Assembly: GCA_035455165.1 (NCBI GenBank)
Contig: DATIFP010000196.1
Coordinates: forward strand, 24,237 to 88,236
Reading direction: 5' to 3'
DNA length: 64,000 bases
Source of the DNA: Blastocatellia bacterium
Lineage (GTDB): Bacteria; Acidobacteriota; Blastocatellia; UBA7656
Made by a program: the position numbers and the translations under genes. Of the stretch, positions 1,963-57,154 are shown in pieces. Numbering within the stretch: the stretch's first letter is position 1; every line of letters begins with the position of its first letter. A model generated the notes under the pieces. The model was not told the DNA's origin, ran no database searches, and saw nothing but the letters and a program-made list of their open reading frames with translations.

Positions 1963-2106
1963 GAGATAGATTACGCGCTGACAGCACTGCGTACGCTTTA
2001 TCTCCTAAAGTGTGGAACAAAAATCTCCTCCCAGGCGGTGGTGTCGCACGGTTGCCGGTAGCGACGGGAGGGTACCCTCGGTTAATTGCCCCTGAGCCGG
2101 AGGATC

Positions 2107-3558
2107 ATGAAAAAGATCGGCAGCTTCAAGCTCATCATCTTTTTCACAGCGCTCACCGTAGTCCTGACGTGGCTGGTGATTTTTGGTTACGAGAGCTATC
2201 TGCGCGGGCCCTTCTATTCGTGGGTCGAAGCACGATATCCCGGCGACAAGCCGCTTCAAGAAACGATCGAACAACGAGTCGAACATTTCTGGATATCGAC
2301 GATGGTCGATGTGATAGTCGTGACGCTGCTGCTCGGCCTGGTCAATCGCCAGCAAAGAAAGGTGAGAGAAAGCGAGAAGCGTTACCGGGCGCTGTTCGAG
2401 CACGCCGGGGACGGAATCGGCGTGGTGACCGCGCTCGATCACTTGCTCGTCGATGCAAACAAGAAGTTCGGGGACATTCTCGATCTCAACCACCAGGCGA
2501 TCGTCGGCAAGCACATCTCCGAAATAATAGACGTGGTTGGGGACGGCCCGGAACATCGCCTGCTTTCGAAGCTATGCGATAAGGGCGCCGACGAAGCCGG
2601 CGAGTGGTCGGATGAAGAGGAGCTCGATATTCGCACCGGGGCGGGTTCTCAAGTGACGGTTGCCGCATCGTGCAGCAAGCTGTCGACAGGTAAACAGCGG
2701 TTTTTCATACTCATCATCCGGGACGTAACCGAGCGCAAGCGGCTCCATCGAGAGAGGCAGGAGATAGAACGCCAGCTCTTCCAGCAGTCGAAGCTGGCGT
2801 CGCTCGGCGAGCTGTCCGCGGGCGTGGCTCACGAGATAAATAACCCGCTCAATTGCATTGTGAATTTCGCCCAGCTGCTAAGAGACGACGGCGTGGCTCG
2901 CAACGAAATGGAACGGCGCATGGTCGACGGGATAATTGAGGAAGGCGATCGAATAGCCAGCATCGTACGAAACCTGTTGACCTTCGCTCGCCAGGATTCT
3001 AATAAGCCGACCGCCGTGTCGGTCATACGCGTCATCGGGGACTCAGTCTCATTGTTCGGCAGCCAACTCGAACGGGATGGGATAACGCTCGAGCTGGAAT
3101 CAGATCCTGAAATCTATCCGGTGCGCGCCGATGCGACGAGGCTTCGCCAGGTGGTGGTCAACATGATCAGCAACGCGCATTACGCCCTGAAGGGGAAGGC
3201 GCCCGGAGAAAGGTTGTTTCGCATAACGGCGCGCAACGCGGGGCGCGCGGGTGAACGGGTCGTTCGCATGGAGTTCTACGACAACGGCCCGGGCGTTCCA
3301 AGCAAGAACGTAGACAAGATTTTCGATCCTTTCTTTACTACTCGGCGAGACAGCGGTGGAACCGGCCTGGGGCTTAGCCTGAGCTTTGGCATCATACGAG
3401 ATTACGGCGGACAGATATGGGTCGAGAGTGAAGAAGGCAGATACACGCGATTCATTGTAGAGCTGCCGGCTGAAGTCTCTCGGGAGGCGGAGTATGCCGA
3501 AAGTCTTGCTGGTGGACGACGAGCCGAACATACGCTGGACGATGGCGGAGCTGCTTAA
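2107..3558 (+). CDS. Membrane-anchored PAS sensor histidine kinase
   Basis: GGAGGA Shine-Dalgarno sequence just before ATG 2107 (the ORF tool start at 2086 is less likely). N-terminal transmembrane segments, then a PAS-like segment. H-box LGELSAGVAHEINNPLN. HATPase_c motifs (DNGPGVP, GGTGLGLS). Confidence 0.85.
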   Translation: MKKIGSFKLIIFFTALTVVLTWLVIFGYESYLRGPFYSWVEARYPGDKPLQETIEQRVEHFWISTMVDVIVVTLLLGLVNRQQRKVRESEKRYRALFEHAGDGIGVVTALDHLLVDANKKFGDILDLNHQAIVGKHISEIIDVVGDGPEHRLLSKLCDKGADEAGEWSDEEELDIRTGAGSQVTVAASCSKLSTGKQRFFILIIRDVTERKRLHRERQEIERQLFQQSKLASLGELSAGVAHEINNPLNCIVNFAQLLRDDGVARNEMERRMVDGIIEEGDRIASIVRNLLTFARQDSNKPTAVSVIRVIGDSVSLFGSQLERDGITLELESDPEIYPVRADATRLRQVVVNMISNAHYALKGKAPGERLFRITARNAGRAGERVVRMEFYDNGPGVPSKNVDKIFDPFFTTRRDSGGTGLGLSLSFGIIRDYGGQIWVESEEGRYTRFIVELPAEVSREAEYAESLAGGRRAEHTLDDGGAA

Positions 3559-5053
3559 GCGCGAAGGCTTCGAAGCGCTCACCGCGTCGGATTTCGAGAG
3601 CGCCATTTCGGTTGTCGAGAACAACGCTATCGATGCAGCCCTCGTAGATATCGTTCTGCCATCGAAAAGCGGGGTCGAGATTCTGAAGGCCCTTCAAGAA
3701 CGCGAACCCTATGTGCCCGTCATAATGGTGACGGGCGAGCCTAACATTTCTCAGATGCCAGAGATCGTGCGGGCAGGCGCGTACGACTTCCTTGCCAAGC
3801 CCGTGGTTAAGGATGTTCTGATCGCTGCTGTCTCGAGGGCGGTCGCGCACAAGCAGCTCCTGGACGAGAAGCGCCGGTTGGAGGAACAAATCAAACGGCA
3901 TGCCGAGGAACTCGAGCTGACCGTGGCAGAGCGAACGCACGAACTCGCCGAGGCTCACAATTTTCTCAACACCGTGCTCGACAGTTCGACCGAACACGCC
4001 ATCATCGCCGTAGATGCTCGAGGCTTGATTATGCTGTTCAACCGCGGCGCCGAGAATATGCTCGGATACAGCGTCCGCGAGGCATTGGGAAGTGATCCGC
4101 GAAAACTGGTGGGAAGCGAAGCATATCGAGGCGGATCGCCGTTTGGTCGTTGGGCAAGACAAGTCCGGGGCGAAGGGCGCCACAAGGCGGAAGTAGTACT
4201 CCGGCGAGCGAACGAAGAGAGATTCACCGCCTCGGTCACCGTAACACCGATCCAGGAGCAAGGTGGGCCATTGCTCGGGTACCTGTGCGTGGTGAAGGAC
4301 CTGACCGAGGAGCGACACAACGAGGAGCGTCTCCGCCAATTGAGCGCCCGGCTTGCTCACCATGAGAAGATTGCGGCGCTTGGCCGCATGGCTGCGCAGC
4401 TCGCTCACGAGATAAAGAACCCTCTGGCCGGGCTGAAACTCTACTCGCGGCACCTAAAAAACAAGATCGCGGGCAAGATCCCTCCAGCGGAAGAAAGCCT
4501 GGTCGACAAGATTAACGATGGCATAGATCAGCTTTCGGAGACTGCCGAACAGGTTCTCAGTTTCGCGCGCCCGATCACGTTGACGCCCCGTCCTGTCGAT
4601 CTCAACAGCGTCATCACCGCTTCGCTGGAGTTGGTCGAGCCGCAGCTGAGCGCCAGGAGAATCAAGGTTGAGTTGAACCTGAAGCAGCCAGGAGCCCGAG
4701 GGACAATCGACGAAGCCGCCATGCGCTCGACTTTGATAAACCTCCTGCTCAACTCGATCCAGGCGATGAGCGAGGGCGGGGAGCTCAGAGTATCAACCGA
4801 CGCGGGCGATCAGGAGCTTCGCGTGGAGATAGCCGATACAGGCTCCGGGATGACTGACGAGGAGGTGAAACACATATTCGAGCCGTTCTATACCACCAAG
4901 AGCCAGGGGTTAGGCCTCGGGCTCTTCTTTGCGGCTACGGTAATCGAACAGCACAGCGGATCAGTCGATGTGAAGAGCCAACCCGGAAAGGGCACTAAGA
5001 TTACTATAAAGCTGCCGATGGGGAGGGGAAAGGCCGATGGGGTCAGCGGGTAG
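3494..5053 (+). CDS. Hybrid two-component protein: N-terminal receiver, PAS, HisKA and HATPase_c
   Basis: Begins MPKVLLVDDEP, a classic receiver start, and overlaps the preceding kinase gene by 65 nt in another frame. PAS (AIIAVDARGLIMLFNRGAENMLGY). H-box AAQLAHEIKNPLAG. ATP-lid (DTGSGM, GLGLGL). Confidence 0.85.
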   Translation: MPKVLLVDDEPNIRWTMAELLKREGFEALTASDFESAISVVENNAIDAALVDIVLPSKSGVEILKALQEREPYVPVIMVTGEPNISQMPEIVRAGAYDFLAKPVVKDVLIAAVSRAVAHKQLLDEKRRLEEQIKRHAEELELTVAERTHELAEAHNFLNTVLDSSTEHAIIAVDARGLIMLFNRGAENMLGYSVREALGSDPRKLVGSEAYRGGSPFGRWARQVRGEGRHKAEVVLRRANEERFTASVTVTPIQEQGGPLLGYLCVVKDLTEERHNEERLRQLSARLAHHEKIAALGRMAAQLAHEIKNPLAGLKLYSRHLKNKIAGKIPPAEESLVDKINDGIDQLSETAEQVLSFARPITLTPRPVDLNSVITASLELVEPQLSARRIKVELNLKQPGARGTIDEAAMRSTLINLLLNSIQAMSEGGELRVSTDAGDQELRVEIADTGSGMTDEEVKHIFEPFYTTKSQGLGLGLFFAATVIEQHSGSVDVKSQPGKGTKITIKLPMGRGKADGVSG

Positions 5054-6452
5054 AATTCTGGTGGTCGATGATGAGAGCAGCGTCACCGACGCACTCGCAC
5101 TGATACTCGGCGATCGAGGCTACGAGATCCAGACCGCCGGTGCGGTTGCAGAAGCGGTCGAGTTGCTTGCGCGCCGCCCTGTCGACCTGGTCTTAACCGA
5201 CCTCAGGTTGAGCGATTCGACCGGACTCGAGCTCCTGACTCGCATAAAGCAAAACACGCCAGAAACCGAAGTCATACTGATGACCGCCCACGGCTCGCTC
5301 GACGTGACCATCGATGCCATCAAGAAGGGCGCGTACTATTATCTCGAAAAGCCATTCACCCCCGACCAGGTTCTAATGCTGGTCGAGCGAGCCATTGAAC
5401 TCGCAAGCGTCAAGCGTGAAAACCGAGCGCTAAAGCGCACGGAAGAAGCGAGAGCCTTCGGGATGGTGGGGCGGACGCCGAAGATGCTGGAGATCTATGA
5501 GACAATCCGCGCGACCGCGCCGTCCGAAGCATCGGTTCTGATCGAGGGCGAGAGCGGGACCGGCAAGGAGTTGATCGCCTCCGCCTTTCATTCGCATAGC
5601 AACCGCGCCCGCGCGCCGTTCGTGCGAATCAACTGTGCCGCCATCCCGCGCGATCTGATCGAATCGGAGCTGTTCGGTTACAAGAAAGGCGCCTTTACGG
5701 GAGCCGATCGCGACAAACGCGGACTGATCGAAGCGGCGTCGGGGGGAACACTGCTGCTGGACGAAGTCGCCGAGATGCCCGCGCATCTTCAAACCAAATT
5801 GCTCCGCGTGCTCCAGGACCGACGGGTTCGGCGTGTGGGTGATGAACAGGAGATTGGGATCGACTTCAGGCTTGTGGCGGCCACCAACCGCAGCACCGCG
5901 GAGGCCATGAAGCAGGGGGTTCTGCGCGAAGACCTCTACTTTCGAATCAGCACCATCAAGATAACCGTGCCGCCGCTCCGTGAGCGGTTGGACGACCTGC
6001 CCCTGCTTGCCGAAGAGATCTTGCAAAGATATGCGGGCAAGTACGGCAAAGTCATTCGCGGCGTATCGCAAGCCGCCTACTCGCTGCTTTCGCGCTATGA
6101 CTGGCCCGGCAACGTCCGTGAGCTCGAGAGCGTCATCGAACGGGCTGTTCTGTTTTGCCCGGACGCACAACTCGGCCCCGAGCATCTCCCCGATCACCTT
6201 AGGAGCGCGCGAGAGGGGAGCTTTCGATGTGAGATACCTCCCTATCTGACTCTGGAAGAGATCGAGCGGGAGGCCATCGAGCAGACGCTCGAGCGCACCG
6301 GGGGCAACGTCAAGAAAACCGCTCAGATCCTCAACATGCACCGCCCTACCCTTTACCGGAAACTTAGACGATTCGGGCTCAAGCGCGGCGTTTCAGGGGA
6401 AGATGAGACAATATCGATTGGAATAGGATCTTCGACTCAGACTCCGAGCTAG
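5037..6452 (+). CDS. Sigma54-dependent transcriptional response regulator (NtrC family)
   Basis: Receiver (ILVVDDE...DLRLSD). AAA+ sigma54-interaction domain (GESGTGKE Walker A, ESELFGY, GAFTGA-like KGAFTGA). C-terminal Fis-type HTH (KTAQILNMHRPTLYRKLRRFGL). 17-nt overlap with the upstream gene. Confidence 0.9.
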   Translation: MGSAGRILVVDDESSVTDALALILGDRGYEIQTAGAVAEAVELLARRPVDLVLTDLRLSDSTGLELLTRIKQNTPETEVILMTAHGSLDVTIDAIKKGAYYYLEKPFTPDQVLMLVERAIELASVKRENRALKRTEEARAFGMVGRTPKMLEIYETIRATAPSEASVLIEGESGTGKELIASAFHSHSNRARAPFVRINCAAIPRDLIESELFGYKKGAFTGADRDKRGLIEAASGGTLLLDEVAEMPAHLQTKLLRVLQDRRVRRVGDEQEIGIDFRLVAATNRSTAEAMKQGVLREDLYFRISTIKITVPPLRERLDDLPLLAEEILQRYAGKYGKVIRGVSQAAYSLLSRYDWPGNVRELESVIERAVLFCPDAQLGPEHLPDHLRSAREGSFRCEIPPYLTLEEIEREAIEQTLERTGGNVKKTAQILNMHRPTLYRKLRRFGLKRGVSGEDETISIGIGSSTQTPS

Positions 6453-6666: not shown

Positions 6667-7038
6667 ATGTCCGTGGGAATGACAGTCCTGGTAGTTGATG
6701 ACGAGCCCAGTGTTCGCGATGCCCTCGAGTTGATCTTGAGCGACAGCGGCTATTTCGTTCTTGCCTCGATGAGTGGGCGGGACGCGCTCGGCAAAGCGCA
6801 CAGGCAAAGGATCGACGTCGCGATCGTCGACGTCGAACTGCCAGATATGTCTGGGCTCGATGTTCTTCGTCATCTCCGGGAAAAAGACCCAGGCCTTCAA
6901 GTCATTGTTATTACGGCGAACCCCACTCCCGCGATAGTCCAAGAAGCGAGAAAGCGAGGCGCGGCTGATTGTCTGCATAAGCCCTTTCACCCCGCGGACA
7001 TTGTCGATGCGATCCAAAGTGCTTTGGCGAGACCGTAG
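6667..7038 (+). CDS. Stand-alone CheY-like receiver domain protein
   Basis: 123 aa, VLVVDDEPSVRDALE...DVAIVDVELPDMSG...KPF; no output domain. Confidence 0.8.
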   Translation: MSVGMTVLVVDDEPSVRDALELILSDSGYFVLASMSGRDALGKAHRQRIDVAIVDVELPDMSGLDVLRHLREKDPGLQVIVITANPTPAIVQEARKRGAADCLHKPFHPADIVDAIQSALARP

Positions 7039-7354
7039 GCGCCTGAGCCCCAGCACCTGGTCATCAATAATAGAGGTCACACTATGGTTTATGTTGAATC
7101 ATACAGACGAACTGTTGATTCACAATAGAACACGGTCGGTATGCGCCCGGAAGAATGCGGTGTCGCTAACAGAGTACGAATCAGGGCTTTCTGGTTTCTT
7201 TGTGACAGTCGGCACATCGTTTGCTCGTTGGGGTGCAGCGGCTCGGCGCCTTAATCCGAAGCGGCCGATGCGCGCTAGGGTTTGCTCTAGTCTGTGATCC
7301 ATAGCCCCGAAATCCACCTTTGAATTCCGGGCCCTGTAGTTAGCCGTTCTGATG

Positions 7355-7522: not shown

Positions 7523-10500
7523 ATGATTATGAGTCGCAAAAATCGCTTGTTGCGGTTTGTGATGGGCGGCCTAGTCGCCCTGGCATTTCTCGCCATTCCT
7601 GATCCAGCCAATGCGCAATTCCAAATACCGGCGGATGGCGCAGGAGGCGGTGGAACCGCGCCGGGTTGCAATCGAACCGTTAATGCCAATGTCGTTGCGT
7701 TGGATCAGGTATTTTTCTGGAATCGTCTCGGAGCGGTGCAGCCGCAAGGGATGATCTTCGCTCTCGAGCGAGACGTCGTCGCGTCCGACCCGGCCAAGCC
7801 GATCGGCGCGGGCAACGTCAAACTCAGAGAAGACAAACGCCCGCGACCGATAGTGCTTCGGATGAACGTGGGCGATTGCCTGCGAATCAACTTCAAAAAC
7901 CTGTTGAATCCGGTTCCGGTCGATCAGGAACAAACGGTCACTCGTGTGGCTTCCATTCGGGCGAACGGGTTGCAACTGGTAACCAGCATCGCCGATGACG
8001 GCTCGAACGTTGGAAGAAACGCCAGCAGCCTGGTTCCTCCCGGTGGGGGCGCCGTTTACACGTTCTACGCAGAGCGCGAAGGCGGCTACATGCTGTACAG
8101 CATGGGTTCGACGACCGGCGGCGAAGGGGATGGCGGACAACTCAACGCCGGGCTCTTTGGCGCAGTCACCGTACAACCCACCGGCGCTGAGTGGTACAGA
8201 AGCCAGGTTACGCAAAATGACCTGGAGCTCGCCACCAAAACCAAAACACCGGACGGCCACCCGGTGGTGGACTACAACGCGGTCTATCCGAAGGACCATC
8301 CGCGAGCCGGGCTCCCCATTTTGAAGATGACGCGTGAGGGGTTTGCCGGGCCCGAGATCGTACATACTGATCTCAACGCTATCATCACTGGACCAGGCGC
8401 GGACGGTTTCAACGGGTGGTACAAAGACACCCCGGTGAATCCGAACCGCAACCGTCCCTATCGTGAATTCACCATCATCTACCACGACGAGATCGGGGCG
8501 GTCCAAGCTTTCCCGCAGTTCGAAAGCCAGCCACCTCCAAATGAGAACCCGCTCAAGTTCACGCTTCATAGCGTGAGAGATGCTTTTGCGATCAACTACG
8601 GCACCGGAGGAATCGGCGCCGAAATCCTTGCGAATCGCCTGGGCGTTGGGCCGATGGCGAATTGCGTCGAGTGCAAGTACGAAGAGTTCTTCCTCACGTC
8701 ATGGGCGGTGGGCGACCCGGCGATGGTCGTGGATAAGCCGGCCAACGCCCCATGCACGATCGAAGACATAAGGAAGGCGAACATGGGTTGCGGCCCGGCC
8801 CCGGGGTTCAAGGCCACCAAGGCTTTCTACCCGGATGATCCATCCAACGTGCATCACAGCTACATAAACGATCACGTGAAGATGAGGATCCTGCACGGCG
8901 GGTCGAAGGAACATCACATTCATCACCTGCACGCGCATCAGTGGGTGCACACGCCCGACAACGACGACTCCGCGTATCTCGACAGTCAAGCGATCGGGCC
9001 GGGCGCCGCTTTCACGTTAGAGATCACCTACAACGGCACCGGCAATCGCAACAAGGTTGTCGGCGATTCGATCTTCCACTGCCACTTCTATCCGCACTTC
9101 GCGATGGGGATGTGGGAGTTGTGGCGCGCTCACGATGTATTCGAGTCGGGAACCGTGCTCGACGAGAAGGGCCGGCCCGCGCCTGGCTCGCGCGCGCTGC
9201 CCGACGCCGAGATTCTGGCAGGCACGCCGATTCCCGCACTGGTTCCGGTCCCGACGATGCCGATGGCTCCGCTTCCGGAAGTCAAGGTGTCGATTGTTAA
9301 CGGACAGGTGCAAATCGAGCAGGGGAAATTCGGACCGCTGCCGGGCAACCCGGGATACCCGTTCTTCATTCCCGCGGTCGCCGGACATCGTCCCCCCACT
9401 GCACCGCTGGACGTAGTGGATGACGGCGGACTACCGCGTCACGTGATCCTCGATGGAAAGTTCACCGAGGTTCACACCCGGCTCGACTTCAGCAAGGTCC
9501 TCGATCTTGCCATCGCAGAGGCGCGACCGGAAGCTGGAACGCCCGTGGAGAAGGAAGCCATGAGGTTTCACGGCATCCGCTTCCACCCGACCTGCCTTCC
9601 AAACGGCATTTGCGATCAGGCAATCGATCCTACCCAGATAGGCGCGAATATCAAATTCGTCACCAACGGGCTGCCCAGAAAGACCGACGCCAACCCGCTT
9701 GGAGCACAACCGGGCGCGCCTTACGCGGATCCCTGCGTTGACGACAATGGGAAGGCCGTGGGCGTCGCGCGCATGTACAAGGCGGCCGGCATTCAGATAG
9801 ACGCGAAGCTGAACAAGGCAGGCTGGCACTTCCCGCAGCAGCGAATCCTTGCGCTGTGGGGTGACGTCAAAGCCCTGGGTGGCCTCCCCGGCCAGCCACA
9901 GCCGACGTCGCCATCCAAGCCGCCTGAGCCGTTCTTCTTCCGCGCCAACACCAACGACTGCATAACGTTCTACCATACCAACCTGATGCCCAGCGTCTAC
10001 GCGCTGGACGACTACCAGGTCAGAACGCCGACCGACATCATCGGACAGCATATTCACCTCGTGAAGTTCGATGTGACTTCTTCGGACGGCTCCGGGAATG
10101 GTTGGAACTATGAAGACGGCACATTCAGTCCCGACGAGGTGATCGAGCGAATCGATGCGATCAACCTGGGCGGCGGATTGATAGTTCCTCCAGTCGTAGG
10201 CGACGGTCCGACACTCCTCGTAAAACTGGAACCGAAGCCGCATCCGTTCTTCGGCACGCTCGGCGCGCGGACGACGACTCAGCGCTGGTATGCCGACGAC
10301 ACCTTGAACAATGCGGGCGTCGATCGGACGCTGCGCACCGTATTCACACACGACCACTTCGGCCCTTCGACTCACCAACAGGTGGGTTTGTATGCCGGTC
10401 TGGTAATCGAACCGACTGGTTCGAAGTGGCGCGATCCGGAGACCGGTCAAATCCTCGGCGGGCAAGGCGTACCGCCTCCGAGGTTTGATGGAGGCCCGAC

Positions 10501-12724
10501 CAGTTGGCGAGTAGACGTTCTGACAGCGAACTCCGCGGACAGCTACCGCGAGTTCATGCTCGAGTTCGCCGACTTCCAGCACGCCTATCTGGCAGGCAGG
10601 GGCGGCGGCCGAGAGAACCCGCATCCCGATCCGCCCGGCGCAATAAATCCGCCGGCCAAGGAAGAAGCCCCTCTGCCTATCGTGATACAGAAAGCCGCCT
10701 TCTGCTTTGGCGGCGACCCGGCGCCATGCCCCGAAGCGATCTCGGCGGCTGACGTCGGCACGATGGTGGTCAACTATCGCAACGAGCCGGTCCCGCTGCG
10801 CATCCGCAATCCGATAACCGGCTTGCAGGTGGACGGAGAAGCGGGCGACCTGTCGCACGTATTCCGGTCGGATGTTCTTCGTAAGGATCCGGCGATGAAC
10901 GTGCAGCCCAACTTCTACTTCCCGTTGACGAAAGATGTACAACCGGGCGACCCGTATACGCCACTGCTGAGAGTCAATGAGAACGACCGGGTTCAGATCC
11001 GGATCCTCGTCGGCGCACACGAAGAAGGGCACAACTTCACGGTGCATGGAATCAAGTGGCTGTTTGAGCCTTCATTCGTGAATTCGGGTTATCGCAATTC
11101 ACAGATGATGGGGATAAGCGAACACTTCGAATTCATTGTCCCGACGATGCCCAAGAAGTTGACCGATAAGACGGCCGATTACCTCTACCGGCCGGGCGCG
11201 TCGACAGACGGTACGTGGAACGGTTTGTGGGGACTGGCCCGAGCCTACAAAGGCACAAGGGCTGACATGCTGGCCCTGCCATCCAATCCGAACGGCCGCG
11301 CTCCGGCGCTCTCGAATCAGGGTGACTTCTCGGGGGTCTGCTTGAAGACGCAGATACCCAAGACTTTTGGCGTCACCGCTGTTCTGGCGCGAGATGTCTT
11401 GCCCGCCGGCACACTTGTCTACAACAGGCGCGCGACGACGGTGAAGAATCCGAACACAGGCGAGACGCACAAGGGCCCGCTACACGACCCGACTGCGATT
11501 CTGTACGTGAGATCGACGGACATCGATGCGACGACCGGCAAGCTGAGGGCGGGCGTTCCAATCGAGCCGTTGATCCTCCGCGCCAATGCCGGCGATTGCA
11601 TCAACCTCACGTTGACCAACAAGCTGCCTTCGGTGTTGCCGGATCTTGCCGGCTGGAACTTCGTGCCAATGATTGTCGAGAAGTTCAATACCAATCAGGT
11701 CAGGCCTTCGAACAACGTGGGACTGCATCCGCAATTGGTGTTCTACGATGTGCTCGACAGCGACGGCTTTAATGTCGGCTTCAACGGCGTTCAAACGGTC
11801 GCTCCCGGATTCAGCCGCACGTATCAGTGGTACGCGGGTGACCTGGTGATCGCATCGGGGATAGGCAGTCTGAAACCGTTCGAGTTTGGCGGGACCAACT
11901 TGATGTCGTCAGACACCATCAAGCACAGCAACAAGGGTGCCTTCGGTGCTCTGATAATCGAGCCGCTAAACACGAAGTGGACTGAGGACAAGGGCTCGCG
12001 AGCCAGAGCGACCGTGACTGACTCGCTTGGCACGGTTCTCTTCCGCGACTTCGTGCTTATGCACCAGACCGACCTCAACCTGAGGTTCGGTGAAGGCTCG
12101 ACGATCGGCAACGGGTCGCCGGTGCCGAACCTGAGAGGAGGCGACGATGCCGAAGACTCGGCGCAGAAAGGGTTCAACTATCGAACCGAACCGCTCTGGT
12201 TCCGAATGGGCATTGCCCCTGACACTCCTTTGAGCAAGGGAGAAGCAATAGCCGAGTTTGGGCCGGGCGGAGTCTCCACTCGCGACATCGACTTCAGCAA
12301 CGTGTTGTCGAATTCGCAGGTGGGTCCCTGCATTGGCATCGACTGCAGTGAACCGGTAACGCCGATATTCACCGCAACGGCGGGAACACCCGTTCGTTTC
12401 CACCTGCTGAACGCCGGCGGCCACGGTCGCAACAACGTCTTCGCGCTGCACGGTCACGTTTGGCCGCAAGAGCCGTTCACTGCGAGCTCGACGGTCATCG
12501 GCCAAAACGTGCAGTCGGAGTGGTCAGGTGCTCAGATGGGAGTCGGAGCAGGCTTCCACTTCGTGGCGATCCCGAGGAATGGCGCAGGAGGAAAGTTCAG
12601 GATCACAGGCGACTACCTGTACCGGACCTTCCAATCGTTGCAGTTCGACGGCGGACTCTGGGGAATCTTCAGAGTCGCTTCGTCTGCCACCACTGATCCG
12701 GCCCTCCTGGATCCTCAACAATAA
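7523..12724 (+). CDS. Giant secreted multicopper-oxidase-like protein (1733 aa) with multiple cupredoxin-like domains
   Basis: Signal peptide (MIMSRKNRLLRFVMGGLVALAFLAIPDPANA). Cupredoxin strand signatures (LRMNVGDCLRINFKNLL; LRANAGDCINLTLTNKL). MCO copper-ligand motifs HHIHHLHAHQW (HxHLHxH type) and HCHFYPHFAMGMWELW (HCHxxxHxxxGM type). A second His-rich set: HIHLVKFDV, FTHDHFGPSTHQQVGLYAG, HGHVWPQ. Size class matches MofA/MnxG-type Mn-oxidising MCOs; that comparison is inference. Confidence 0.75.
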   Translation: MIMSRKNRLLRFVMGGLVALAFLAIPDPANAQFQIPADGAGGGGTAPGCNRTVNANVVALDQVFFWNRLGAVQPQGMIFALERDVVASDPAKPIGAGNVKLREDKRPRPIVLRMNVGDCLRINFKNLLNPVPVDQEQTVTRVASIRANGLQLVTSIADDGSNVGRNASSLVPPGGGAVYTFYAEREGGYMLYSMGSTTGGEGDGGQLNAGLFGAVTVQPTGAEWYRSQVTQNDLELATKTKTPDGHPVVDYNAVYPKDHPRAGLPILKMTREGFAGPEIVHTDLNAIITGPGADGFNGWYKDTPVNPNRNRPYREFTIIYHDEIGAVQAFPQFESQPPPNENPLKFTLHSVRDAFAINYGTGGIGAEILANRLGVGPMANCVECKYEEFFLTSWAVGDPAMVVDKPANAPCTIEDIRKANMGCGPAPGFKATKAFYPDDPSNVHHSYINDHVKMRILHGGSKEHHIHHLHAHQWVHTPDNDDSAYLDSQAIGPGAAFTLEITYNGTGNRNKVVGDSIFHCHFYPHFAMGMWELWRAHDVFESGTVLDEKGRPAPGSRALPDAEILAGTPIPALVPVPTMPMAPLPEVKVSIVNGQVQIEQGKFGPLPGNPGYPFFIPAVAGHRPPTAPLDVVDDGGLPRHVILDGKFTEVHTRLDFSKVLDLAIAEARPEAGTPVEKEAMRFHGIRFHPTCLPNGICDQAIDPTQIGANIKFVTNGLPRKTDANPLGAQPGAPYADPCVDDNGKAVGVARMYKAAGIQIDAKLNKAGWHFPQQRILALWGDVKALGGLPGQPQPTSPSKPPEPFFFRANTNDCITFYHTNLMPSVYALDDYQVRTPTDIIGQHIHLVKFDVTSSDGSGNGWNYEDGTFSPDEVIERIDAINLGGGLIVPPVVGDGPTLLVKLEPKPHPFFGTLGARTTTQRWYADDTLNNAGVDRTLRTVFTHDHFGPSTHQQVGLYAGLVIEPTGSKWRDPETGQILGGQGVPPPRFDGGPTSWRVDVLTANSADSYREFMLEFADFQHAYLAGRGGGRENPHPDPPGAINPPAKEEAPLPIVIQKAAFCFGGDPAPCPEAISAADVGTMVVNYRNEPVPLRIRNPITGLQVDGEAGDLSHVFRSDVLRKDPAMNVQPNFYFPLTKDVQPGDPYTPLLRVNENDRVQIRILVGAHEEGHNFTVHGIKWLFEPSFVNSGYRNSQMMGISEHFEFIVPTMPKKLTDKTADYLYRPGASTDGTWNGLWGLARAYKGTRADMLALPSNPNGRAPALSNQGDFSGVCLKTQIPKTFGVTAVLARDVLPAGTLVYNRRATTVKNPNTGETHKGPLHDPTAILYVRSTDIDATTGKLRAGVPIEPLILRANAGDCINLTLTNKLPSVLPDLAGWNFVPMIVEKFNTNQVRPSNNVGLHPQLVFYDVLDSDGFNVGFNGVQTVAPGFSRTYQWYAGDLVIASGIGSLKPFEFGGTNLMSSDTIKHSNKGAFGALIIEPLNTKWTEDKGSRARATVTDSLGTVLFRDFVLMHQTDLNLRFGEGSTIGNGSPVPNLRGGDDAEDSAQKGFNYRTEPLWFRMGIAPDTPLSKGEAIAEFGPGGVSTRDIDFSNVLSNSQVGPCIGIDCSEPVTPIFTATAGTPVRFHLLNAGGHGRNNVFALHGHVWPQEPFTASSTVIGQNVQSEWSGAQMGVGAGFHFVAIPRNGAGGKFRITGDYLYRTFQSLQFDGGLWGIFRVASSATTDPALLDPQQ

Positions 12725-12839: not shown

Positions 12840-13079
12840 ATGAACAGCTCTGACAATCCTCGCCCGGCCTTCGAGACGACCGACCTCAATCTGGCAAGCT
12901 TCCTGCGATCGCGCAGCTTCGAGATTGCAGACATCAAACGCCAGAACTCCAAAACGATTTTTGCCTTCGATGATTCGCCGGCTCTACGCCAGGCGATCCT
13001 CGATTTTGCGAACGACGGAACGGTCGCAGTCCGGTCGTTTTGCAACACGGTCAGGGATTTGAAGGCCATCACGCGGTAG
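12840..13079 (+). CDS. Small hypothetical protein (79 aa), no recognised function
   Basis: Intact ORF between the oxidase terminator hairpin and the beta-propeller gene; no signal peptide; weak RBS. Confidence 0.4.
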   Translation: MNSSDNPRPAFETTDLNLASFLRSRSFEIADIKRQNSKTIFAFDDSPALRQAILDFANDGTVAVRSFCNTVRDLKAITR

Positions 13080-13109: not shown

Positions 13110-15170
13110 ATGAAGACAGCCACCAGCAAAACGAAAAGACCCAGGGGTCCAAAGACGAGTGTCTTGTCAAATAGCGGCCGGCTCGGACTTGCTACGGCCT
13201 TGTTGCTGACCGTCGCCATTATCGCTGCGGCGGGAGTCCCCCAGTCGAAGTCGATCGCGACCGACCAGACGAAACCCGGCTCGGATGAAAAACCGGCATC
13301 TGCGTCTTCTTCCAGTCGCGAGCCGCAACGGATAGTGCACGAAGGCCTCGTCATTGATTTCAGCGTCGAACCTGTTTCCGCGCGAGGCGGAAAAGCGACT
13401 GCTCTGATCGAAGGCGATGATGCAACGGTTCGGTTCAAGATGACCGATTCCCGGACTGGAACGCCGTTGACCAATCTGCACCCCTCCGCCTGGATGGATC
13501 GCCGGGCGGCGGGAAAGACAACCGAAGGGAAAGATTGCCGTCAGAAGATACAGTCGTTCCTGCAATCGAGCCTCAGCTCCCGCCCCGATATGGACTTGAA
13601 CATCTACTACATCCTTACACTCAATCAGGAGGCCAACATATCGGTCATCGACCCATTGCTGGGCTACGGCAGCAGCAAGCTGCTCACGCTTGTGTTCCTG
13701 AAGAGCCCCGGCGAGGACTGGGTCATGAGCCGCGACAAGAAGTGGCTGTTCGTCACTATGCCGTTGGTGAACCAGCTTGCCGTTGTCGATACCTCAAACT
13801 GGAAAGTGCTTACCAACATAGATGCCGGCCCGAAGCCCTCGAAGATCGCGTTGCAGCCTGACGACAAGTATTTGTGGGTTGGAAACGACGCGGCCGATGG
13901 GGAGAGCGGCGTCACGGCGATTGATTCCAGCCAGTTGAAGGTCGCGGCGCATATAAAGACTGGAGCGGGTCATCACGAAATTGCATTTGCAGGCGATAGC
14001 CGCTACGCCTACGTGACCAACAAGCTGGACGGCACGCTTTCGGTGATCGATGTACAAAAGCTCTCGAGGGCCAAAGACATAAAGACCGGCCCGCTTCCGG
14101 TGTCCCTGGCGTTCTCAGCTCTCAGCAATGCGATTTACGTTGCCGGCGAAGAAGACGGCACGATCGCGGTGATCGGCGGTGAGATCCCCGACATCCTGGC
14201 TCGAATCAAAACCAAACCGGGCGTGAGGTCGATTCGCTTTGCTCCGGATGGACGCTATGGGTTCGTTGTGAACGGCAAAGACAGCAACGTTCACGTGTTC
14301 GACGCGTCCAGTAATCGGCTTCTGCACGCGATCGACGTCGGCAAGAATCCGGACAAGATAAGCTTCACGCGCGGCTACGCCTACGTTAGAGCGCTGGGCA
14401 GCGATCAGGTCAACATGATCCGGCTTGAAGCAATTGGCAAACCGGGCGAAGTCCCGGTGATAGAGTTCCCCGCCGGTCAGTTGGCTCCCGAGAAATCGTC
14501 GAGCAGATCGCTGGCCGATCCCATCGTCGCAACCCCGGAAGGAGAATCAGTTCTTGTCGCGAATCCCGCGGACAAGATGATCTATTACTACGCCGAGGGG
14601 ATGGCCGCGCCGATGGGCAGCTTCCAGAATTATCGCCGGGAGCCGCGCGCGGTGATGGTCTGGGACCAGAGCCTTCGCGAGACTTCGCCAGGCGTCTACT
14701 CGACTAACGTCAAGCTTGTCGGCTCCGGGGACTACGATGTTGCCTTTCTCCTGGATACTCCGCGTGTGTCCCATTGCTTTGACCTGAGCGTGGCGCCAAA
14801 TCTCGCGTTGAAAAAAGAACCGGAGGTCCCGATTTACGTTGAGCCGCTGATCACCGATTCGAAGATCAAAGTCGGTGAAACCATCAAGCTGCAGTTCCTG
14901 GTTGTGGATTCGAAAAGCAGGCTTCCCAAAGATGGCCTGAAGGACTTAGGCGTGCTTGTGTTTCTGGCTCCTGGCCAGTCGCAAAACCGCCTGTGGGCGC
15001 AATCGATCGGGGACGGCAAATACGAGGTTTCTTTTAAGCCAGCGCAAGCCGGACCGTATTACGTGTTTGTCCATTGTCCCTCGTTGAGAGTCGGCTACAA
15101 TCAGACCATTCACTTCATCCTGCAGGCCGTCGAAGCAAAACCCGCGACTCCTGCAACCCCTTCAAAATAG
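13110..15170 (+). CDS. YVTN-family beta-propeller repeat protein with N-terminal signal/anchor and a C-terminal Ig-like beta-sandwich region
   Basis: Repeated propeller blade motifs (YAYVTNKLDGTLSVIDV, IYVAGEEDGTIAVIGG, YGFVVNGKDSNVHVFD, YAYVRALGSDQVNMI). N-terminal hydrophobic segment LGLATALLLTVAIIAAAG. Confidence 0.7.
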   Translation: MKTATSKTKRPRGPKTSVLSNSGRLGLATALLLTVAIIAAAGVPQSKSIATDQTKPGSDEKPASASSSSREPQRIVHEGLVIDFSVEPVSARGGKATALIEGDDATVRFKMTDSRTGTPLTNLHPSAWMDRRAAGKTTEGKDCRQKIQSFLQSSLSSRPDMDLNIYYILTLNQEANISVIDPLLGYGSSKLLTLVFLKSPGEDWVMSRDKKWLFVTMPLVNQLAVVDTSNWKVLTNIDAGPKPSKIALQPDDKYLWVGNDAADGESGVTAIDSSQLKVAAHIKTGAGHHEIAFAGDSRYAYVTNKLDGTLSVIDVQKLSRAKDIKTGPLPVSLAFSALSNAIYVAGEEDGTIAVIGGEIPDILARIKTKPGVRSIRFAPDGRYGFVVNGKDSNVHVFDASSNRLLHAIDVGKNPDKISFTRGYAYVRALGSDQVNMIRLEAIGKPGEVPVIEFPAGQLAPEKSSSRSLADPIVATPEGESVLVANPADKMIYYYAEGMAAPMGSFQNYRREPRAVMVWDQSLRETSPGVYSTNVKLVGSGDYDVAFLLDTPRVSHCFDLSVAPNLALKKEPEVPIYVEPLITDSKIKVGETIKLQFLVVDSKSRLPKDGLKDLGVLVFLAPGQSQNRLWAQSIGDGKYEVSFKPAQAGPYYVFVHCPSLRVGYNQTIHFILQAVEAKPATPATPSK

Positions 15171-15207: not shown

Positions 15208-15858
15208 ATGAATATGACAGATGAAACAAAACGTCGATTAGCGGGGCCCGCGTGGACCCGCACTGTGTGGACTGCGCTTGTGGTTGCGGCGAGCGTCGGG
15301 TTCTTGACATGGCCCATAGCGGCGCAATCAAAGAGCCCGGCTCCGGACGACAAGGATTCTCCGGCGCGAAACTATTTCACAGACGTTCAGTTGATCAATC
15401 AGGACGGCAAGCCTATGCGGTTCTACAGCGACTTGCTCAAGGACAAAGTGGTCATCATCAATACGTTCTTCACCACCTGCACAAGCGTCTGTCCTCCGAT
15501 GAGCAGGAACCTGGAACGAGTTCAAAGCTGGCTGGGAGACCGGCTCGGCAAGGACGTTCACATAATCTCGATCAGCGTTGACCCCGCAGTCGACACTCCG
15601 CCGCGGCTCAAAGACTACGCCCAAAAATACAAAGCGCGGCCGGGCTGGTTCTTTGTCGCCGGCAAGAAAGAGAATGCCGAATTCGCATTGCGAAAGATCG
15701 GACAATTTGTCGAATCGAAAGACGACCACTCGACGGTGATCATCATCGGGAATCTGCATACCGGGCTCTGGAAGAAAGCAATGGGTATGGCGAAGGCCGA
15801 AGACCTGATCAAGGTCGTGGAGAGCGTGGTCGATGATAAGCCGGGAGAGGTGAAATGA
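15208..15858 (+). CDS. Sco1/SenC-family copper chaperone (thioredoxin fold, CxxxCP)
   Basis: Signal/anchor, FFTTCTSVCPPM (CxxxCP copper site), conserved His in DHSTVIIIG, ISISVDPAVDTP. Confidence 0.85.
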   Translation: MNMTDETKRRLAGPAWTRTVWTALVVAASVGFLTWPIAAQSKSPAPDDKDSPARNYFTDVQLINQDGKPMRFYSDLLKDKVVIINTFFTTCTSVCPPMSRNLERVQSWLGDRLGKDVHIISISVDPAVDTPPRLKDYAQKYKARPGWFFVAGKKENAEFALRKIGQFVESKDDHSTVIIIGNLHTGLWKKAMGMAKAEDLIKVVESVVDDKPGEVK

Positions 15859-17474
15859 AAGCGAACCCAGCCGCGGTGATGAATATCAAACGCATTGCAT
15901 TCGTGGTTGCCTTGATGCTGATGCTCTTGTTTATCGGCAGCGCCGCCGCCAGCGGACCCGGACCGGGTCAACTGACTGAGCAGGAGAAACGGGGGAAGTT
16001 CATTTACCTGCGCGGCGCCAGCCCTTCGGGTAGGGAGATAACCTGCTATCTGGGAGACGGGACGATGGAGGTGCCGGCAGCGGCGATGCTGTGCGCAAAC
16101 TGTCACGGGTTTGACGGCCGGGGAAATCCGGAAGGCGGGGTGGTGCCCTCGGACATAACCTGGGAGGCGCTCTCCAAGTCTTATGGAGTCACTCACGCGA
16201 GCGGACGAAAGCATCCTCCCTACACGGACCGCGCGCTTGGGATCGCGGTGGCCAAAGGCATAGACCCGGCGGGGAACAAGCTGCCCAACACGATGCCGAG
16301 ATACTGGATGTCGCCGGAAGATCTCGCCGATCTGGTCGCTTATGTGAAACGTCTCGGACAGGATCGCGACCCGGGGTTGACGGAGACGAGCATCCGAGTC
16401 GGGACGATCGTGGCCGGACCGGGCCCGATGTCGGAAATGGGCCACGCGGTGGAAGCGGCCCTGGGAGCTTATTTCGAGGAGGTCAACGCCCAGGGTGGAA
16501 TCTACAATCGCATGATCGAGCTGCGCGTCGCCAAGTCACCGGCTGACCCGCGAGCAGCCAAATCAAATGCCGAGCGGTTCATCGACACCGAGCAGGTGTT
16601 CGCAATGGCGGGCGCGTTCATCGCGGGAGCGGACAAGGAAATAGCTTCGCTTGTCGAAGAAAAAGAAGTAGTGCTGGTAGGGCCGTCGACTCTCTATCCG
16701 GAGATTGGCTTTCCCCTGAACCGACACACTTTCTATCTGTTCTCGGGCTTGAAAGATCAAGCCGGTGCGCTGGTCAACTTCATCGGAGACAAACTTCAAA
16801 AGCAGACCCCGCGGCTCGCGATTGTCGCTCTCGATAGCGCCGACGCCGCGGGCCTCACGGAAGCGATTGAGAAACACGCCAAAAGACGCGGCTACAACGC
16901 AATCACCAGGCTCAGCTATTCGCGCAAGCAGTTTGATCCGGGCCAACTCGTCAAGAAGCTGAGCGACGCGGGCGCGGATGCGGTTTTCCTCTCAGGTTGG
17001 GGCGGAGAAGAGCTGGCGCTTATGAAAGAGGCGGCGAGGATGAACTTTACACCGTACTTTTTGATTCCCGGGTCGCTTGCCAGTAAGGAACTCCTGGATG
17101 CCCCGCCGATCCTCAAAGAAAGGATCTTTTTGGCTTTTCCGACTCTGCCAACAGACCAGACGCCGGAGGGCGTGCGCGAGTTTCTCACGATGGCAGAAAA
17201 GCACAACCTTCCGCAAAAGCAGCTTGCCGCTCAGCTCTCGGCATACTGCGCGGCGAAGATTCTCGTTGAGGCCTTGAAGCTGACGGGCAGGGAGCTGAGC
17301 CGCGAGAAGCTCATCAGGACGCTGGAGGGTCTTTACAACTTCGATACCGGATTGAGCCCCCGAATCTCTTACGGCCCGAATCGCCGAATCGGCGCGTTCG
17401 GAGCCTACATTGTAATGATCGATCCGGAGAAAAAGCAGTTCATTCCTGCGGGCGGCTGGATTACGCCCGAGTAG
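15855..17474 (+). CDS. Fusion protein: N-terminal mono-haem cytochrome c domain plus type-I periplasmic substrate-binding (LivK/PBP1-like) domain
   Basis: Signal peptide; CANCHG haem-binding CxxCH in the first ~150 aa; the remainder resembles branched-chain-amino-acid-type periplasmic binding proteins (VGTIVAGPGPMSEMGHAVEAALGAYFEEVNAQGGIYNRMIEL...). Start overlaps the Sco stop (ATGA). Confidence 0.7.
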   Translation: MKANPAAVMNIKRIAFVVALMLMLLFIGSAAASGPGPGQLTEQEKRGKFIYLRGASPSGREITCYLGDGTMEVPAAAMLCANCHGFDGRGNPEGGVVPSDITWEALSKSYGVTHASGRKHPPYTDRALGIAVAKGIDPAGNKLPNTMPRYWMSPEDLADLVAYVKRLGQDRDPGLTETSIRVGTIVAGPGPMSEMGHAVEAALGAYFEEVNAQGGIYNRMIELRVAKSPADPRAAKSNAERFIDTEQVFAMAGAFIAGADKEIASLVEEKEVVLVGPSTLYPEIGFPLNRHTFYLFSGLKDQAGALVNFIGDKLQKQTPRLAIVALDSADAAGLTEAIEKHAKRRGYNAITRLSYSRKQFDPGQLVKKLSDAGADAVFLSGWGGEELALMKEAARMNFTPYFLIPGSLASKELLDAPPILKERIFLAFPTLPTDQTPEGVREFLTMAEKHNLPQKQLAAQLSAYCAAKILVEALKLTGRELSREKLIRTLEGLYNFDTGLSPRISYGPNRRIGAFGAYIVMIDPEKKQFIPAGGWITPE

Positions 17475-17515
17475 ATGATGCAATGCCGAACCGGAAATTC
17501 CAGAGGAGGAGACCA

Positions 17516-20005: not shown

Positions 20006-20204
20006 GCATGCGACGATAGATCTCCGCCATACTGGGACGACTCGGGGAACAAGCCGGCAACCCTCATAATTCGCGAACACCAGGGCCGATTTGACGGTCG
20101 AATCACGATCATGAGTCAATGTTCGGGTAGCCAGGGTCGAACTATGACGATGCTTCGACCTGCCGGCGTCGTTCAACACATGTTGATTCATGATTGGAGG
20201 TCCG

Positions 20205-38431: not shown

Positions 38432-38504
38432 CGGGCGCTTAGCTCAGTCGGTAGAGCACTGTGTTCACACCGCAGGGGTCACTGGTTCGAGTCCAGTAGC
38501 GCCC
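38432..38504 (+). tRNA. tRNA-Val (anticodon CAC)
   Basis: Cloverleaf folded by hand: acceptor GGGCGCT/AGCGCCC, D-arm GCTC-AGTCGGTA-GAGC, anticodon stem CTGTG/CGCAG with loop TTCACAC, T-arm ACTGG-TTCGAGT-CCAGT, discriminator A, CCA not encoded. Confidence 0.85.
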
Positions 38505-38553
38505 ACTGTTTTTGGCCCGCCTTCATTAGGGTTGTGGCAAGAGTCAAATCGTT

Positions 38554-41057: not shown

Positions 41058-41063
41058 GATCGA

Positions 41064-44773: not shown

Positions 44774-44779
44774 GGGCGG

Positions 44780-48128: not shown

Positions 48129-48144
48129 TAGAGTGGCGAGCGCA

Positions 48145-57149: not shown

Positions 57150-57154
57150 GGTCC

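What the first reader, a model, noticed from the sequence alone, without database searches (positions are those of the whole stretch)
7523..12724. 1733-aa secreted protein carrying canonical MCO copper motifs plus a second, atypical His-rich set
The HHIHHLHAHQW and HCHFYPHFAMGMWELW motifs correspond to MCO signature regions 3 and 4 (trinuclear cluster plus type-1 Cu). Cupredoxin-like GDC strands recur at least three times. Additional His clusters (HIHLVKFDV, FTHDHFGPSTHQQVGLYAG, HGRNN..HGHVWPQ) suggest extra metal sites or a six-domain architecture. The C-terminal ~550 aa are shared with the truncated paralog at 2..1651, so the conserved C-terminal block is likely functionally essential.
Basis: partly seen in the sequence, partly recalled or inferred. 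Interest (0 to 1): 0.7.

Follow-up and report, generated by a model that had tools for sequence, protein, structure and literature searches.

The report
MnxG-type six-domain copper oxidase gene
This gene encodes a large exported copper enzyme of the known MnxG family, whose studied relatives oxidise manganese, and it sits in an acidobacterial version of the Pseudomonas putida manganese-oxidation gene cluster, so it is a well-read but ordinary finding.

Summary
The 1733-aa ORF (7523..12724, +) and every quoted motif are real. The protein is a six-cupredoxin-domain multicopper oxidase (MCO), colinear with Bacillus MnxG (PDB 9BXA). Its only NCBIfam hit is the Pseudomonas-type MnxG model NF041487, at 1433 bits against a 3100 cut-off.

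It carries one complete copper set, not two. Domain 2 supplies the type-1 site (H465, C520, H525, M530) and half the trinuclear cluster (H468, H470, H519, H521). The "atypical" HIHLVKF and THDH motifs in domain 3 (H843, H845, H943, H945) supply the other half. All twelve residues are invariant in 68 homologues. The HGRNN..HGH motif in domain 6 is a remnant of signature region 3, with no partner residues.

The neighbouring genes match the P. putida GB-1 mnxG operon: YVTN beta-propeller, two SCO1, cytochrome c–binding protein and SurA/thioredoxin. Two PAS histidine kinases, a sigma-54 regulator and a sigma-54-type promoter also match. The family is large, centred on Acidobacteriota, and already labelled "manganese oxidase".

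Verdict: new member of a known kind, most likely a Mn(II) oxidase. The substrate is inferred, not shown.

The parts
2..1651 (+). C-terminal 549 aa (domains 4-6) of a second, divergent MnxG-type MCO paralogue; the gene runs off the window start
   Evidence: 56% identity over 576 aa to aa 1143-1718 of the main ORF. NF041487 hit at 449 bits to the profile's C-terminus.
2086..3558 (+). PAS sensor histidine kinase (MnxS-like by architecture)
   Evidence: PAS + HisKA + HATPase_c. The start codon is uncertain (TTG).
3494..5053 (+). Receiver-PAS histidine kinase (second sensor kinase)
   Evidence: Response_reg + PAS + HisKA + HATPase_c.
5037..6452 (+). [quoted passage not shown]
   Evidence: Response_reg + Sigma54_activat + HTH_8. 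A homologue of at least 45% identity lies within 6.5 kb upstream of the MCO in 14 of 44 loci with enough flank.
6667..7038 (+). Single-domain response regulator
   Evidence: Response_reg, E = 2e-30.
7210..7225 (+). Candidate sigma-54 (-24/-12) promoter cGGCACatcgtTTGCt, 314 nt upstream of the MCO start codon
   Evidence: One mismatch to TGGCAC-N5-TTGC. Such sites (at most 1 mismatch) occur upstream of the MCO gene in 16 of 78 loci, against 3 of 234 same-size in-gene controls.
7523..12724 (+). 1733-aa MnxG-type six-domain multicopper oxidase (the finding)
7523..7615 (+). Predicted Sec signal peptide (aa 1-31, cleavage after ANA)
   Evidence: Read from the sequence. Homologues have the same layout and no Tat consensus.
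8912..8944 (+). Domain 2, MCO signature region 3: H465 (type-1 Cu), H468 and H470 (trinuclear cluster)
   Evidence: Aligned to the HxxHxH of 1AOZ, a two-domain laccase and 9BXA. Invariant in 68 sequences.
9077..9124 (+). Domain 2, signature region 4: H519, C520, H521, H525, M530
   Evidence: Aligned to HCHxxxHxxxxM of 1AOZ and the laccase. H525 aligns to residue 340 of the 9BXA 'H340A' mutant. Invariant.
10049..10075 (+). Domain 3, signature region 1 equivalent: H843-x-H845
   Evidence: Aligns to HIHFVKFDV of Bacillus MnxG. Invariant. Absent from domains 1 and 5.
10343..10399 (+). Domain 3, signature region 2 equivalent: H943-x-H945 ... QQVGLYAGLVIEP
   Evidence: Aligns to FFHDHLFANSHQQHG of Bacillus MnxG. 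Invariant.
10940..11251 (+). Core of domain 4, with the conserved GAHEEGH motif (aa 1164-1170) at the region-3 position; no Cys and no HCH
   Evidence: E1167, E1168 and H1170 are invariant. Bacillus MnxG has AHEESH here.
12422..12469 (+). Domain 6 remnant of region 3: H1634 (84% conserved), H1643 and H1645 (invariant)
   Evidence: Bacillus MnxG domain 6 has HTFHLHGH here.
12840..13079 (+). Small conserved ORF (79 aa)
   Evidence: 85% identical to the 85-aa gene at the same position in L001, which carries PF18903 DUF5659.
13110..15170 (+). YVTN-repeat beta-propeller protein
   Evidence: Cytochrom_D1/YNCE/Lactonase in Pfam. TIGR02276 YVTN repeat. Found downstream of the MCO in 31 of 47 loci. Same gene type as in the P. 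putida mnxG operon (PMC11409713).
15208..15858 (+). SCO1/SenC copper chaperone
   Evidence: 26 of 47 loci.
15855..17474 (+). Cytochrome c fused to a periplasmic binding protein
   Evidence: Cytochrom_C + Peripla_BP_6; 26 of 47 loci. [quoted passage not shown]
17483..19108 (+). SurA_N plus thioredoxin/DsbA-like protein
   Evidence: 'SurA domain' gene in the P. putida operon (PMC11409713).
19199..20005 (+). Heavy-metal-binding domain plus SCO1/SenC (second copper chaperone)
   Evidence: HMBD + SCO1-SenC; 25 of 47 loci.
20190..21764 (+). Second SurA_N plus thioredoxin/DsbA-like protein

Best explanation
The ORF encodes a Sec-exported, six-cupredoxin-domain multicopper oxidase of the MnxG family, most likely a Mn(II) oxidase. 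It has one catalytic copper set. The type-1 copper (H465, C520, H525, M530) in domain 2 takes single electrons from the substrate. These pass through the H519-C520-H521 triad to a trinuclear copper cluster at the domain 2/3 interface, held by four His from domain 2 and four from domain 3, where O2 is reduced to water. Domains 1 and 4-6 have lost their copper ligands and complete the six-domain ring. Because export is by Sec, folding, disulfide formation and copper loading would happen in the periplasm. The co-transcribed SCO1 chaperones and thioredoxin/DsbA-like proteins would help with this. Expression is probably driven from a sigma-54 promoter by the adjacent two-kinase, sigma-54 regulator system, as in P. 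putida GB-1. Shown here: homology, folds, ligand conservation and gene context. Inferred: the Mn(II) substrate, the copper-loading route and the regulation.
For: - **Homology.** The only NCBIfam hit is NF041487, manganese-oxidizing MCO MnxG. The only significant PDB sequence hit is Bacillus MnxG 9BXA (E = 1e-97; profile 2e-145), colinear over the whole chain.
- **Folds.** The AF2 model of aa 1125-1733 (pLDDT 85.5) matches 9BXA at 1e-39 and ceruloplasmin at 3e-17. The model of aa 45-1135 (pLDDT 73.6) matches 9BXA at 4.5e-34, then ceruloplasmin, small laccases and ascorbate oxidase at about 1e-9.
- **Ligands.** All 12 ligand positions are invariant in 68 homologues. Regions 3 and 4 align to known ligands of solved MCOs. 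The internal-repeat alignments show a complete set only in domains 2 and 3. This agrees with PMC3600357.
- **Gene context.** The neighbours reproduce the six gene types of the P. putida GB-1 mnxG operon and its MnxS1/S2/R-type regulators (PMC11409713, PMC8218464). The module recurs across phyla.
- **Promoter.** The sigma-54 motif is enriched upstream of the MCO gene, 16 of 78 loci against 3 of 234 controls. P. putida mnxG has a predicted sigma-54 promoter (PMC11930936).
- **Export.** Signal peptides across the family are Sec-type.
Against: - No activity data exist for this protein or for any acidobacterial member, and MCO substrate cannot be read from sequence.
- The NF041487 score is under half the equivalog cut-off, so this is not an orthologue by NCBI's criterion.
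- The domain 3 motifs align at sequence level only with Bacillus MnxG, not with classical MCOs.
- Kinase and regulator orthology to MnxS1/S2/R rests on architecture and position alone.
- The sigma-54 site is a consensus match, not a mapped promoter.
Confidence: 0.7

Rival explanations
1. It is the same enzyme class and electron path, but the physiological substrate is not Mn(II). It could be Fe(II), Cu(I), or phenolic or humic compounds (ferroxidase, cuprous oxidase or laccase-like role).
For: The NF041487 score is well below the equivalog cut-off. Five other family representatives also score only 1045-1192 bits, so the family is much broader than the tested enzymes. Several genomes carry two or three divergent copies, which leaves room for different substrates. 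Many sources name these proteins only 'copper oxidase'.
Against: Both relatives with experimental or genetic support, Bacillus MnxG and P. putida MnxG, are Mn oxidases (bioRxiv 10.1101/2022.11.10.515945; PMC11409713). The whole accessory and regulatory gene set of the P. putida Mn system is retained.
Confidence: 0.25
2. One reading: the additional His clusters form extra metal centres beyond the canonical four coppers, such as a second copper site or a dedicated Mn-binding site in domains 4-6.
For: H1643, H1645, H1679 and H1170 are invariant, as are E1167 and E1168 of the GAHEEGH motif. The HGH of domain 6 and the AHEE.H of domain 4 are also kept in Bacillus MnxG, which is only 21-26% identical in the fold alignments. 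Such conservation suggests function.
Against: Two of the three 'extra' clusters are the ordinary trinuclear-cluster ligands of domain 3. Domains 4 and 6 lack Cys and HCH, and domains 1 and 5 lack HxH, so no second type-1 site or trinuclear cluster can form. Conservation could equally be structural. No geometry could be measured.
Confidence: 0.15
3. It is a degenerate or non-catalytic paralogue that serves a structural or regulatory role.
For: Two paralogues lie in one locus.
Against: All 12 catalytic ligands are intact and invariant. The ORF is uninterrupted. It has its own accessory operon.
Confidence: 0.02

Closest known systems
Pseudomonas putida GB-1 MnxG (NCBIfam NF041487) and its mnxG operon with the MnxS1/MnxS2/MnxR regulators
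   Same: It is a large exported six-domain MCO and the best and only NCBIfam hit. The same accessory gene types follow the oxidase: YVTN beta-propeller, two SCO1/SenC, a cytochrome c-containing substrate-binding protein and a SurA-domain protein (PMC11409713). Two sensor kinases, a sigma-54 response regulator and a sigma-54-type promoter are also present (PMC11930936).
   Different: The score is 1433.7 bits against the 3100-bit cut-off. The host is an acidobacterium (best hit 89% identical, a Blastocatellia MAG). The regulators lie directly beside the oxidase and between two paralogues. The locus has an extra SurA/thioredoxin gene and a DUF5659 gene. Gene order differs slightly.
Bacillus sp. 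PL-12 MnxG (Mnx complex, PDB 9BXA)
   Same: It is colinear over all six domains. The type-1 and trinuclear-cluster ligands are in the same places in domains 2 and 3. The AHEE.H motif of domain 4 and the HGH of domain 6 are shared. It is the best fold match for both halves.
   Different: Bacillus MnxG is 1227 aa against 1733 aa here. The extra roughly 470 residues are a signal peptide and long insertions between domains 1/2, 2/3 and 3/4 and within domain 3. Identity in the fold alignments is 21-26%. No pair of small mnxE/mnxF-like genes precedes the oxidase here. Bacillus domain 6 keeps a full HxxHxH, whereas this protein keeps only HGH.
Ceruloplasmin / hephaestin (eukaryotic six-domain MCOs)
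   Same: It has the six-cupredoxin-domain ring fold and the same four-copper chemistry.
   Different: [quoted passage not shown]
Two-domain 'small' laccases (e.g. Streptomyces SLAC)
   Same: The domain 2 copper motifs align directly at sequence level (profile E about 1e-7). This fits a two-domain repeat unit.
   Different: Small laccases form homotrimers with three active centres. This protein is a single chain of three such units with only one centre retained.

Membership tests
Multicopper oxidase superfamily | Ligand set HxH, HxH, HxxHxH and HCHxxxHxxxxM (1 type-1 Cu + 3-Cu cluster) | tested here: met
   H843/H845, H943/H945, H465/H468/H470 and H519/C520/H521/H525/M530 are all invariant in 68 homologues. 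Regions 3 and 4 align to 1AOZ and a small laccase.
Multicopper oxidase superfamily | Cupredoxin-fold domains | tested here: met
   Both AF2 models hit MnxG, ceruloplasmin, factor V/VIII, laccases and ascorbate oxidase with probability 1.00.
Multicopper oxidase superfamily | Recognised by the Pfam Cu-oxidase models | tested here: not met
   No Pfam family at E <= 0.1 for either paralogue. Homologues carry only a faint precomputed PF07732 hit. This is a sensitivity gap in the models, not evidence against membership.
Multicopper oxidase superfamily | Ligand geometry compatible with copper binding | not testable with these tools
   Model coordinates are not exposed.
Bacterial six-domain MCO, MnxG type (Bacillus MnxG, 9BXA) | Colinear homology over six domains | tested here: met
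   (E = 2e-145 with the profile).
Bacterial six-domain MCO, MnxG type (Bacillus MnxG, 9BXA) | Single type-1 site in domain 2; trinuclear cluster between domains 2 and 3 | tested here: met
   Internal-repeat alignments A4 and A5. The rule is stated in PMC3600357.
Bacterial six-domain MCO, MnxG type (Bacillus MnxG, 9BXA) | MnxE/MnxF small accessory subunits encoded upstream | tested here: inconclusive
   No pair of small genes precedes the oxidase. No MnxE/F sequences were available for a search.
P. putida-type MnxG equivalog (NCBIfam NF041487) | Score at or above the curated cut-off (3100 bits) | tested here: not met
   1433.7 bits.
P. putida-type MnxG equivalog (NCBIfam NF041487) | Operon with YVTN propeller, SCO1 x2, cytochrome c-binding protein and SurA-domain protein | tested here: met
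   against PMC11409713 Table 4. The module is conserved in related loci.
P. putida-type MnxG equivalog (NCBIfam NF041487) | Two sensor kinases, a sigma-54 response regulator and a sigma-54 promoter | tested here: met
   The architectures are present and adjacent. The promoter motif is present and enriched. Orthology to MnxS1/S2/R is not established.
P. putida-type MnxG equivalog (NCBIfam NF041487) | Mn(II) oxidase activity | not testable with these tools
   Needs expression and a Mn oxide assay.
Ceruloplasmin-type six-domain MCO | Trinuclear cluster between domains 1 and 6; type-1 sites in domains 2, 4 and 6 | tested here: not met
   Domain 1 has no HxH. Domains 4 and 6 have no Cys or HCH.

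The most novel reading that the evidence does not exclude
The conserved residues left in the copper-less C-terminal half form one or more extra, non-canonical metal sites. Candidates are GAHEEGH in domain 4 (E1167, E1168 and H1170 invariant) and H1643, H1645 and H1679 in domain 6; the domain 4 and domain 6 HGH motifs are also kept in Bacillus MnxG. The most interesting possibility is a Mn-binding or Mn(III)-holding site that lets this MCO class carry Mn(II) through to Mn(IV) oxide. A still more remote reading is that the conserved cytochrome c-binding protein and beta-propeller partners form a complex with the oxidase and divert electrons to the respiratory chain.
Probability: 0.15. Interest if true: 0.55.

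Novelty: new member of a known kind. Interest (0 to 1): 0.25.

Why it matters
The practical value is modest. A published survey of sequenced genomes placed 98% of Mn-oxidase homologues in Proteobacteria, Actinobacteria and Firmicutes (bioRxiv 10.1101/2022.11.10.515945). Here the MnxG-type family is very large in Acidobacteriota genomes assembled from metagenomes, often with several copies per genome and the full accessory operon. If these enzymes do oxidise Mn(II), abundant soil Acidobacteria would contribute to Mn oxide formation. The locus also gives a clean ligand map and a candidate set of accessory and regulatory genes for anyone expressing such an enzyme. It further shows that Pfam's copper-oxidase models miss this family.

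Tried and rejected
- **Pfam scan** of both paralogues found nothing.
- **Exact-sequence lookup** of the window protein found it is not on record.
- **Domain 3 against PDB sequences** gave only Bacillus MnxG plus chance hits to phosducin-like proteins, so regions 1 and 2 could not be aligned directly to classical MCOs.
- **Literature on 9BXA.** Searches for the structure paper ('9BXA', 'H340A Mnx', 'MnxE MnxF structure') found nothing relevant. Geszvain et al. 2013 is not held.
- **Getting a true P. putida MnxG sequence.** A search seeded with the Methylobacter luteus homologue returned the same acidobacterial-type clade. Five long representatives all scored below the NF041487 cut-off. No direct identity to P. 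putida MnxG could therefore be given.
- **First sigma-54 scan** had an indexing error and was redone.
- **Rejected idea.** A ceruloplasmin-like arrangement was rejected, as was a second complete copper centre.
Full report
**Observation.** The ORF at 7523..12724 (+) is 1733 aa, and all six quoted motifs are present at the positions listed. "GDC" occurs twice (aa 117, 1357), with NDC (aa 811) at the homologous strand. The N-terminus reads as a Sec signal peptide ending ANA|Q. 62 of 68 homologues lack any twin-arginine pattern. The sequence at 2..1651 is the C-terminal 549 aa of a second gene that runs off the window. It is 56% identical over 576 aa to aa 1143-1718 of the main protein, so it is a diverged paralogue and not a truncated copy.

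**What it is.** Pfam finds nothing at E <= 0.1. NCBIfam gives a single hit, NF041487 "manganese-oxidizing multicopper oxidase MnxG", at 1433.7 bits against a 3100-bit cut-off.
- Against PDB sequences, the only significant hit is Bacillus sp. PL-12 MnxG (9BXA_A). The E-value is 1e-97 for the protein and 2e-145 for a 68-sequence profile, and the match is colinear along the whole chain.
- The AF2 model of aa 1125-1733 (pLDDT 85.5, pTM 0.89) hits 9BXA at 1e-39 and ceruloplasmin at about 1e-16 to 3e-17.
- The AF2 model of aa 45-1135 (pLDDT 73.6, pTM 0.81) hits 9BXA at 4.5e-34. It then hits ceruloplasmin, small laccases and ascorbate oxidase at about 1e-9.

**Ligand assignment.** Domain 2 aligns residue-for-residue with solved MCOs.
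- KEHHIHHLHAHQW matches the HxxHxH of ascorbate oxidase and a two-domain laccase. This gives H465 (type-1), H468 and H470 (trinuclear cluster).
- FHCHFYPHFAMGM matches HCHxxxHxxxxM, giving H519, C520, H521, H525 and M530.
- 9BXA is the "H340A" mutant, and its residue 340 aligns with H525.
- The two "atypical" clusters align with HIHFVKFDV and FFHDHLFANSHQQHG of Bacillus MnxG domain 3. They have the form of MCO regions 1 and 2 (HxH, and HxH followed by Q..GL.G...EP).
- All twelve residues are invariant in 68 full-length homologues of 62-90% identity.

Aligning the even domains (2, 4, 6) and the odd domains (3, 1, 5) with each other shows where ligands survive. Only domain 2 keeps regions 3 and 4, and only domain 3 keeps regions 1 and 2. 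Domain 4 keeps H1170 at the type-1 His position but has no Cys. Domain 6 keeps only H1643 and H1645. Domain 5 keeps H1402. Domain 1 keeps none.

This is the layout PMC3600357 reports for all the bacterial six-domain MCOs it analysed: cluster between domains 2 and 3, type-1 site only in domain 2. It differs from ceruloplasmin, where the cluster lies between domains 1 and 6.

So there is one copper centre. The "second His-rich set" is its other half, and HGRNN..HGH is a remnant. I could not measure ligand distances because model coordinates are not exposed.

**Other conserved features.**
- Each odd domain carries an invariant Cys pair: 49/119, 738/813 and 1273/1359, the second Cys being the C of the G/N-D-C strand. 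I infer one disulfide per odd domain.
- An invariant CxxC (381/384) and a 1061/1069 pair lie in inter-domain insertions.
- Relative to Bacillus MnxG (1227 aa), the extra roughly 470 residues are the signal peptide plus insertions between domains 1/2, 2/3 and 3/4 and inside domain 3.
- GAHEEGH in domain 4 and HGH in domain 6 are also kept in Bacillus MnxG. This is the only real support for extra metal sites.

**Gene context.**
- Upstream lie a PAS histidine kinase, a receiver-PAS histidine kinase, a sigma-54 response regulator and a single receiver domain.
- A site cGGCACatcgtTTGCt lies 314 nt before the start codon.
- Downstream lie a small ORF (85% identical to a DUF5659 gene in L001), a YVTN beta-propeller, SCO1, a cytochrome c fused to a periplasmic binding protein, SurA_N-thioredoxin, HMBD-SCO1 and a second SurA_N-thioredoxin.
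- PMC11409713 (Table 4) lists the P. putida GB-1 mnxG operon as mnxG, YVTN propeller, SCO1, SCO1, a substrate-binding protein with a cytochrome c domain, and a SurA-domain protein. MnxS1, MnxS2 and the sigma-54-dependent MnxR are the required regulators.
- PMC11930936 predicts a sigma-54 promoter upstream of mnxG.

The window therefore holds the same gene set.

**Related loci.** They are mostly from Acidobacteriota, with others in Gemmatimonadota, Chloroflexota, Planctomycetota, Pyxidicoccus fallax, Methylobacter luteus and Roseomonas populi.
- Among 47 loci with at least 8 kb downstream, the propeller follows in 31, SCO1 in 26, the cytochrome c-binding protein in 26 and HMBD-SCO1 in 25.
- A sigma-54 regulator lies upstream in 14 of 44 loci with enough upstream flank.
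- A TGGCAC-N5-TTGC site with at most one mismatch occurs within 600 nt upstream in 16 of 78 cases, against 3 of 234 in-gene controls.
- Tandem oxidase pairs recur in L022, L033, L034 and L080. Some metagenome-assembled genomes carry three copies.
- The catalytic region matches 612 clusters (50% identity level) at E <= 1e-30.

**Mechanism and rivals.** The best-supported reading is a Mn(II) oxidase working as in Bacillus and P. putida MnxG. The substrate is oxidised at the domain 2 type-1 copper, electrons pass through the His-Cys-His triad to the domain 2/3 cluster, and O2 is reduced to water.

Sec export implies periplasmic copper loading and disulfide formation. I infer that this is the job of the two SCO1 proteins and the thioredoxin/DsbA-like proteins, by analogy with Sco/TlpA systems (named in PMC11409713). 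The substrate is inferred from homology and context only.

The main rival is a different substrate, which the low NF041487 score and the multiple paralogues leave open. Extra metal sites in domains 4-6 remain possible but unproven. A pseudo-enzyme is very unlikely, given intact and invariant ligands.

**Novelty.** Sources already name these proteins "copper oxidase" or "manganese oxidase". An Acidobacteriota genome carrying only MnxG has been reported from rock varnish (PMC13439051). This is a new member of a known kind.

Noticed in passing
window 2..1651 and 7523..12724; L022, L033, L034, L080; L015/L016/L032: MnxG-type oxidases often occur as tandem or multiple diverged copies. This window has two (56% identical). 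Four fetched loci, including Methylobacter luteus, have adjacent pairs, and one Thermoanaerobaculia MAG has three contigs with a copy each.
   Followed up: partly
window 7523..12724: Pfam's copper-oxidase models give no hit at E <= 0.1 for a protein with all twelve canonical MCO ligands, so Pfam-based surveys would miss this family.
   Followed up: yes
window 12840..13079: A small 79-aa ORF between the oxidase and the beta-propeller is 85% identical to a gene at the same place in L001 that carries DUF5659. It has no signal peptide and its role is unknown.
   Followed up: partly
window 8663..8674 (aa 381-384): An invariant CxxC lies in the insertion between domains 1 and 2, alongside an invariant C1061/C1069 pair in the domain 3/4 insertion. 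Bacillus MnxG lacks most of these insertions.
   Followed up: no
window 31473..32873 and 32908..34872: A second sigma-54 response regulator and PAS histidine kinase pair lies about 10 kb downstream of the oxidase operon. It is followed by a PPC-domain protein and a matrixin-like metalloprotease.
   Followed up: no
L026; P0168: A full-length homologue (about 57% identical) is recorded in 'Candidatus Methanoperedens nitroreducens' assemblies, including a 3.3-Mb contig. That would be an O2-dependent oxidase in an anaerobic methane-oxidising archaeon, unless it reflects transfer or binning error.
   Followed up: no
L001 1173..9649: In the closest relative (89% identical oxidase, Blastocatellia MAG) the upstream regulators are replaced. 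Instead there is a PAS kinase, a molybdopterin oxidoreductase, an Fe-S protein, a Rieske protein and an SLAC1-type channel.
   Followed up: no
P0038, P0097, P0111, P0012, P0046: Some homologues are 2200-2950 aa long and carry added Tol-type beta-propeller/PD40, carbohydrate-binding, PKD or fibronectin-III domains.
   Followed up: no
window 38433..38506 and 40000..64000: The rest of the window is ordinary chromosomal housekeeping: tRNA-Val, RuvB, Met- and Arg-tRNA synthetases, DAHP synthase and a Mur ligase. The oxidase locus is therefore chromosomal and not on an obvious mobile element.
   Followed up: partly
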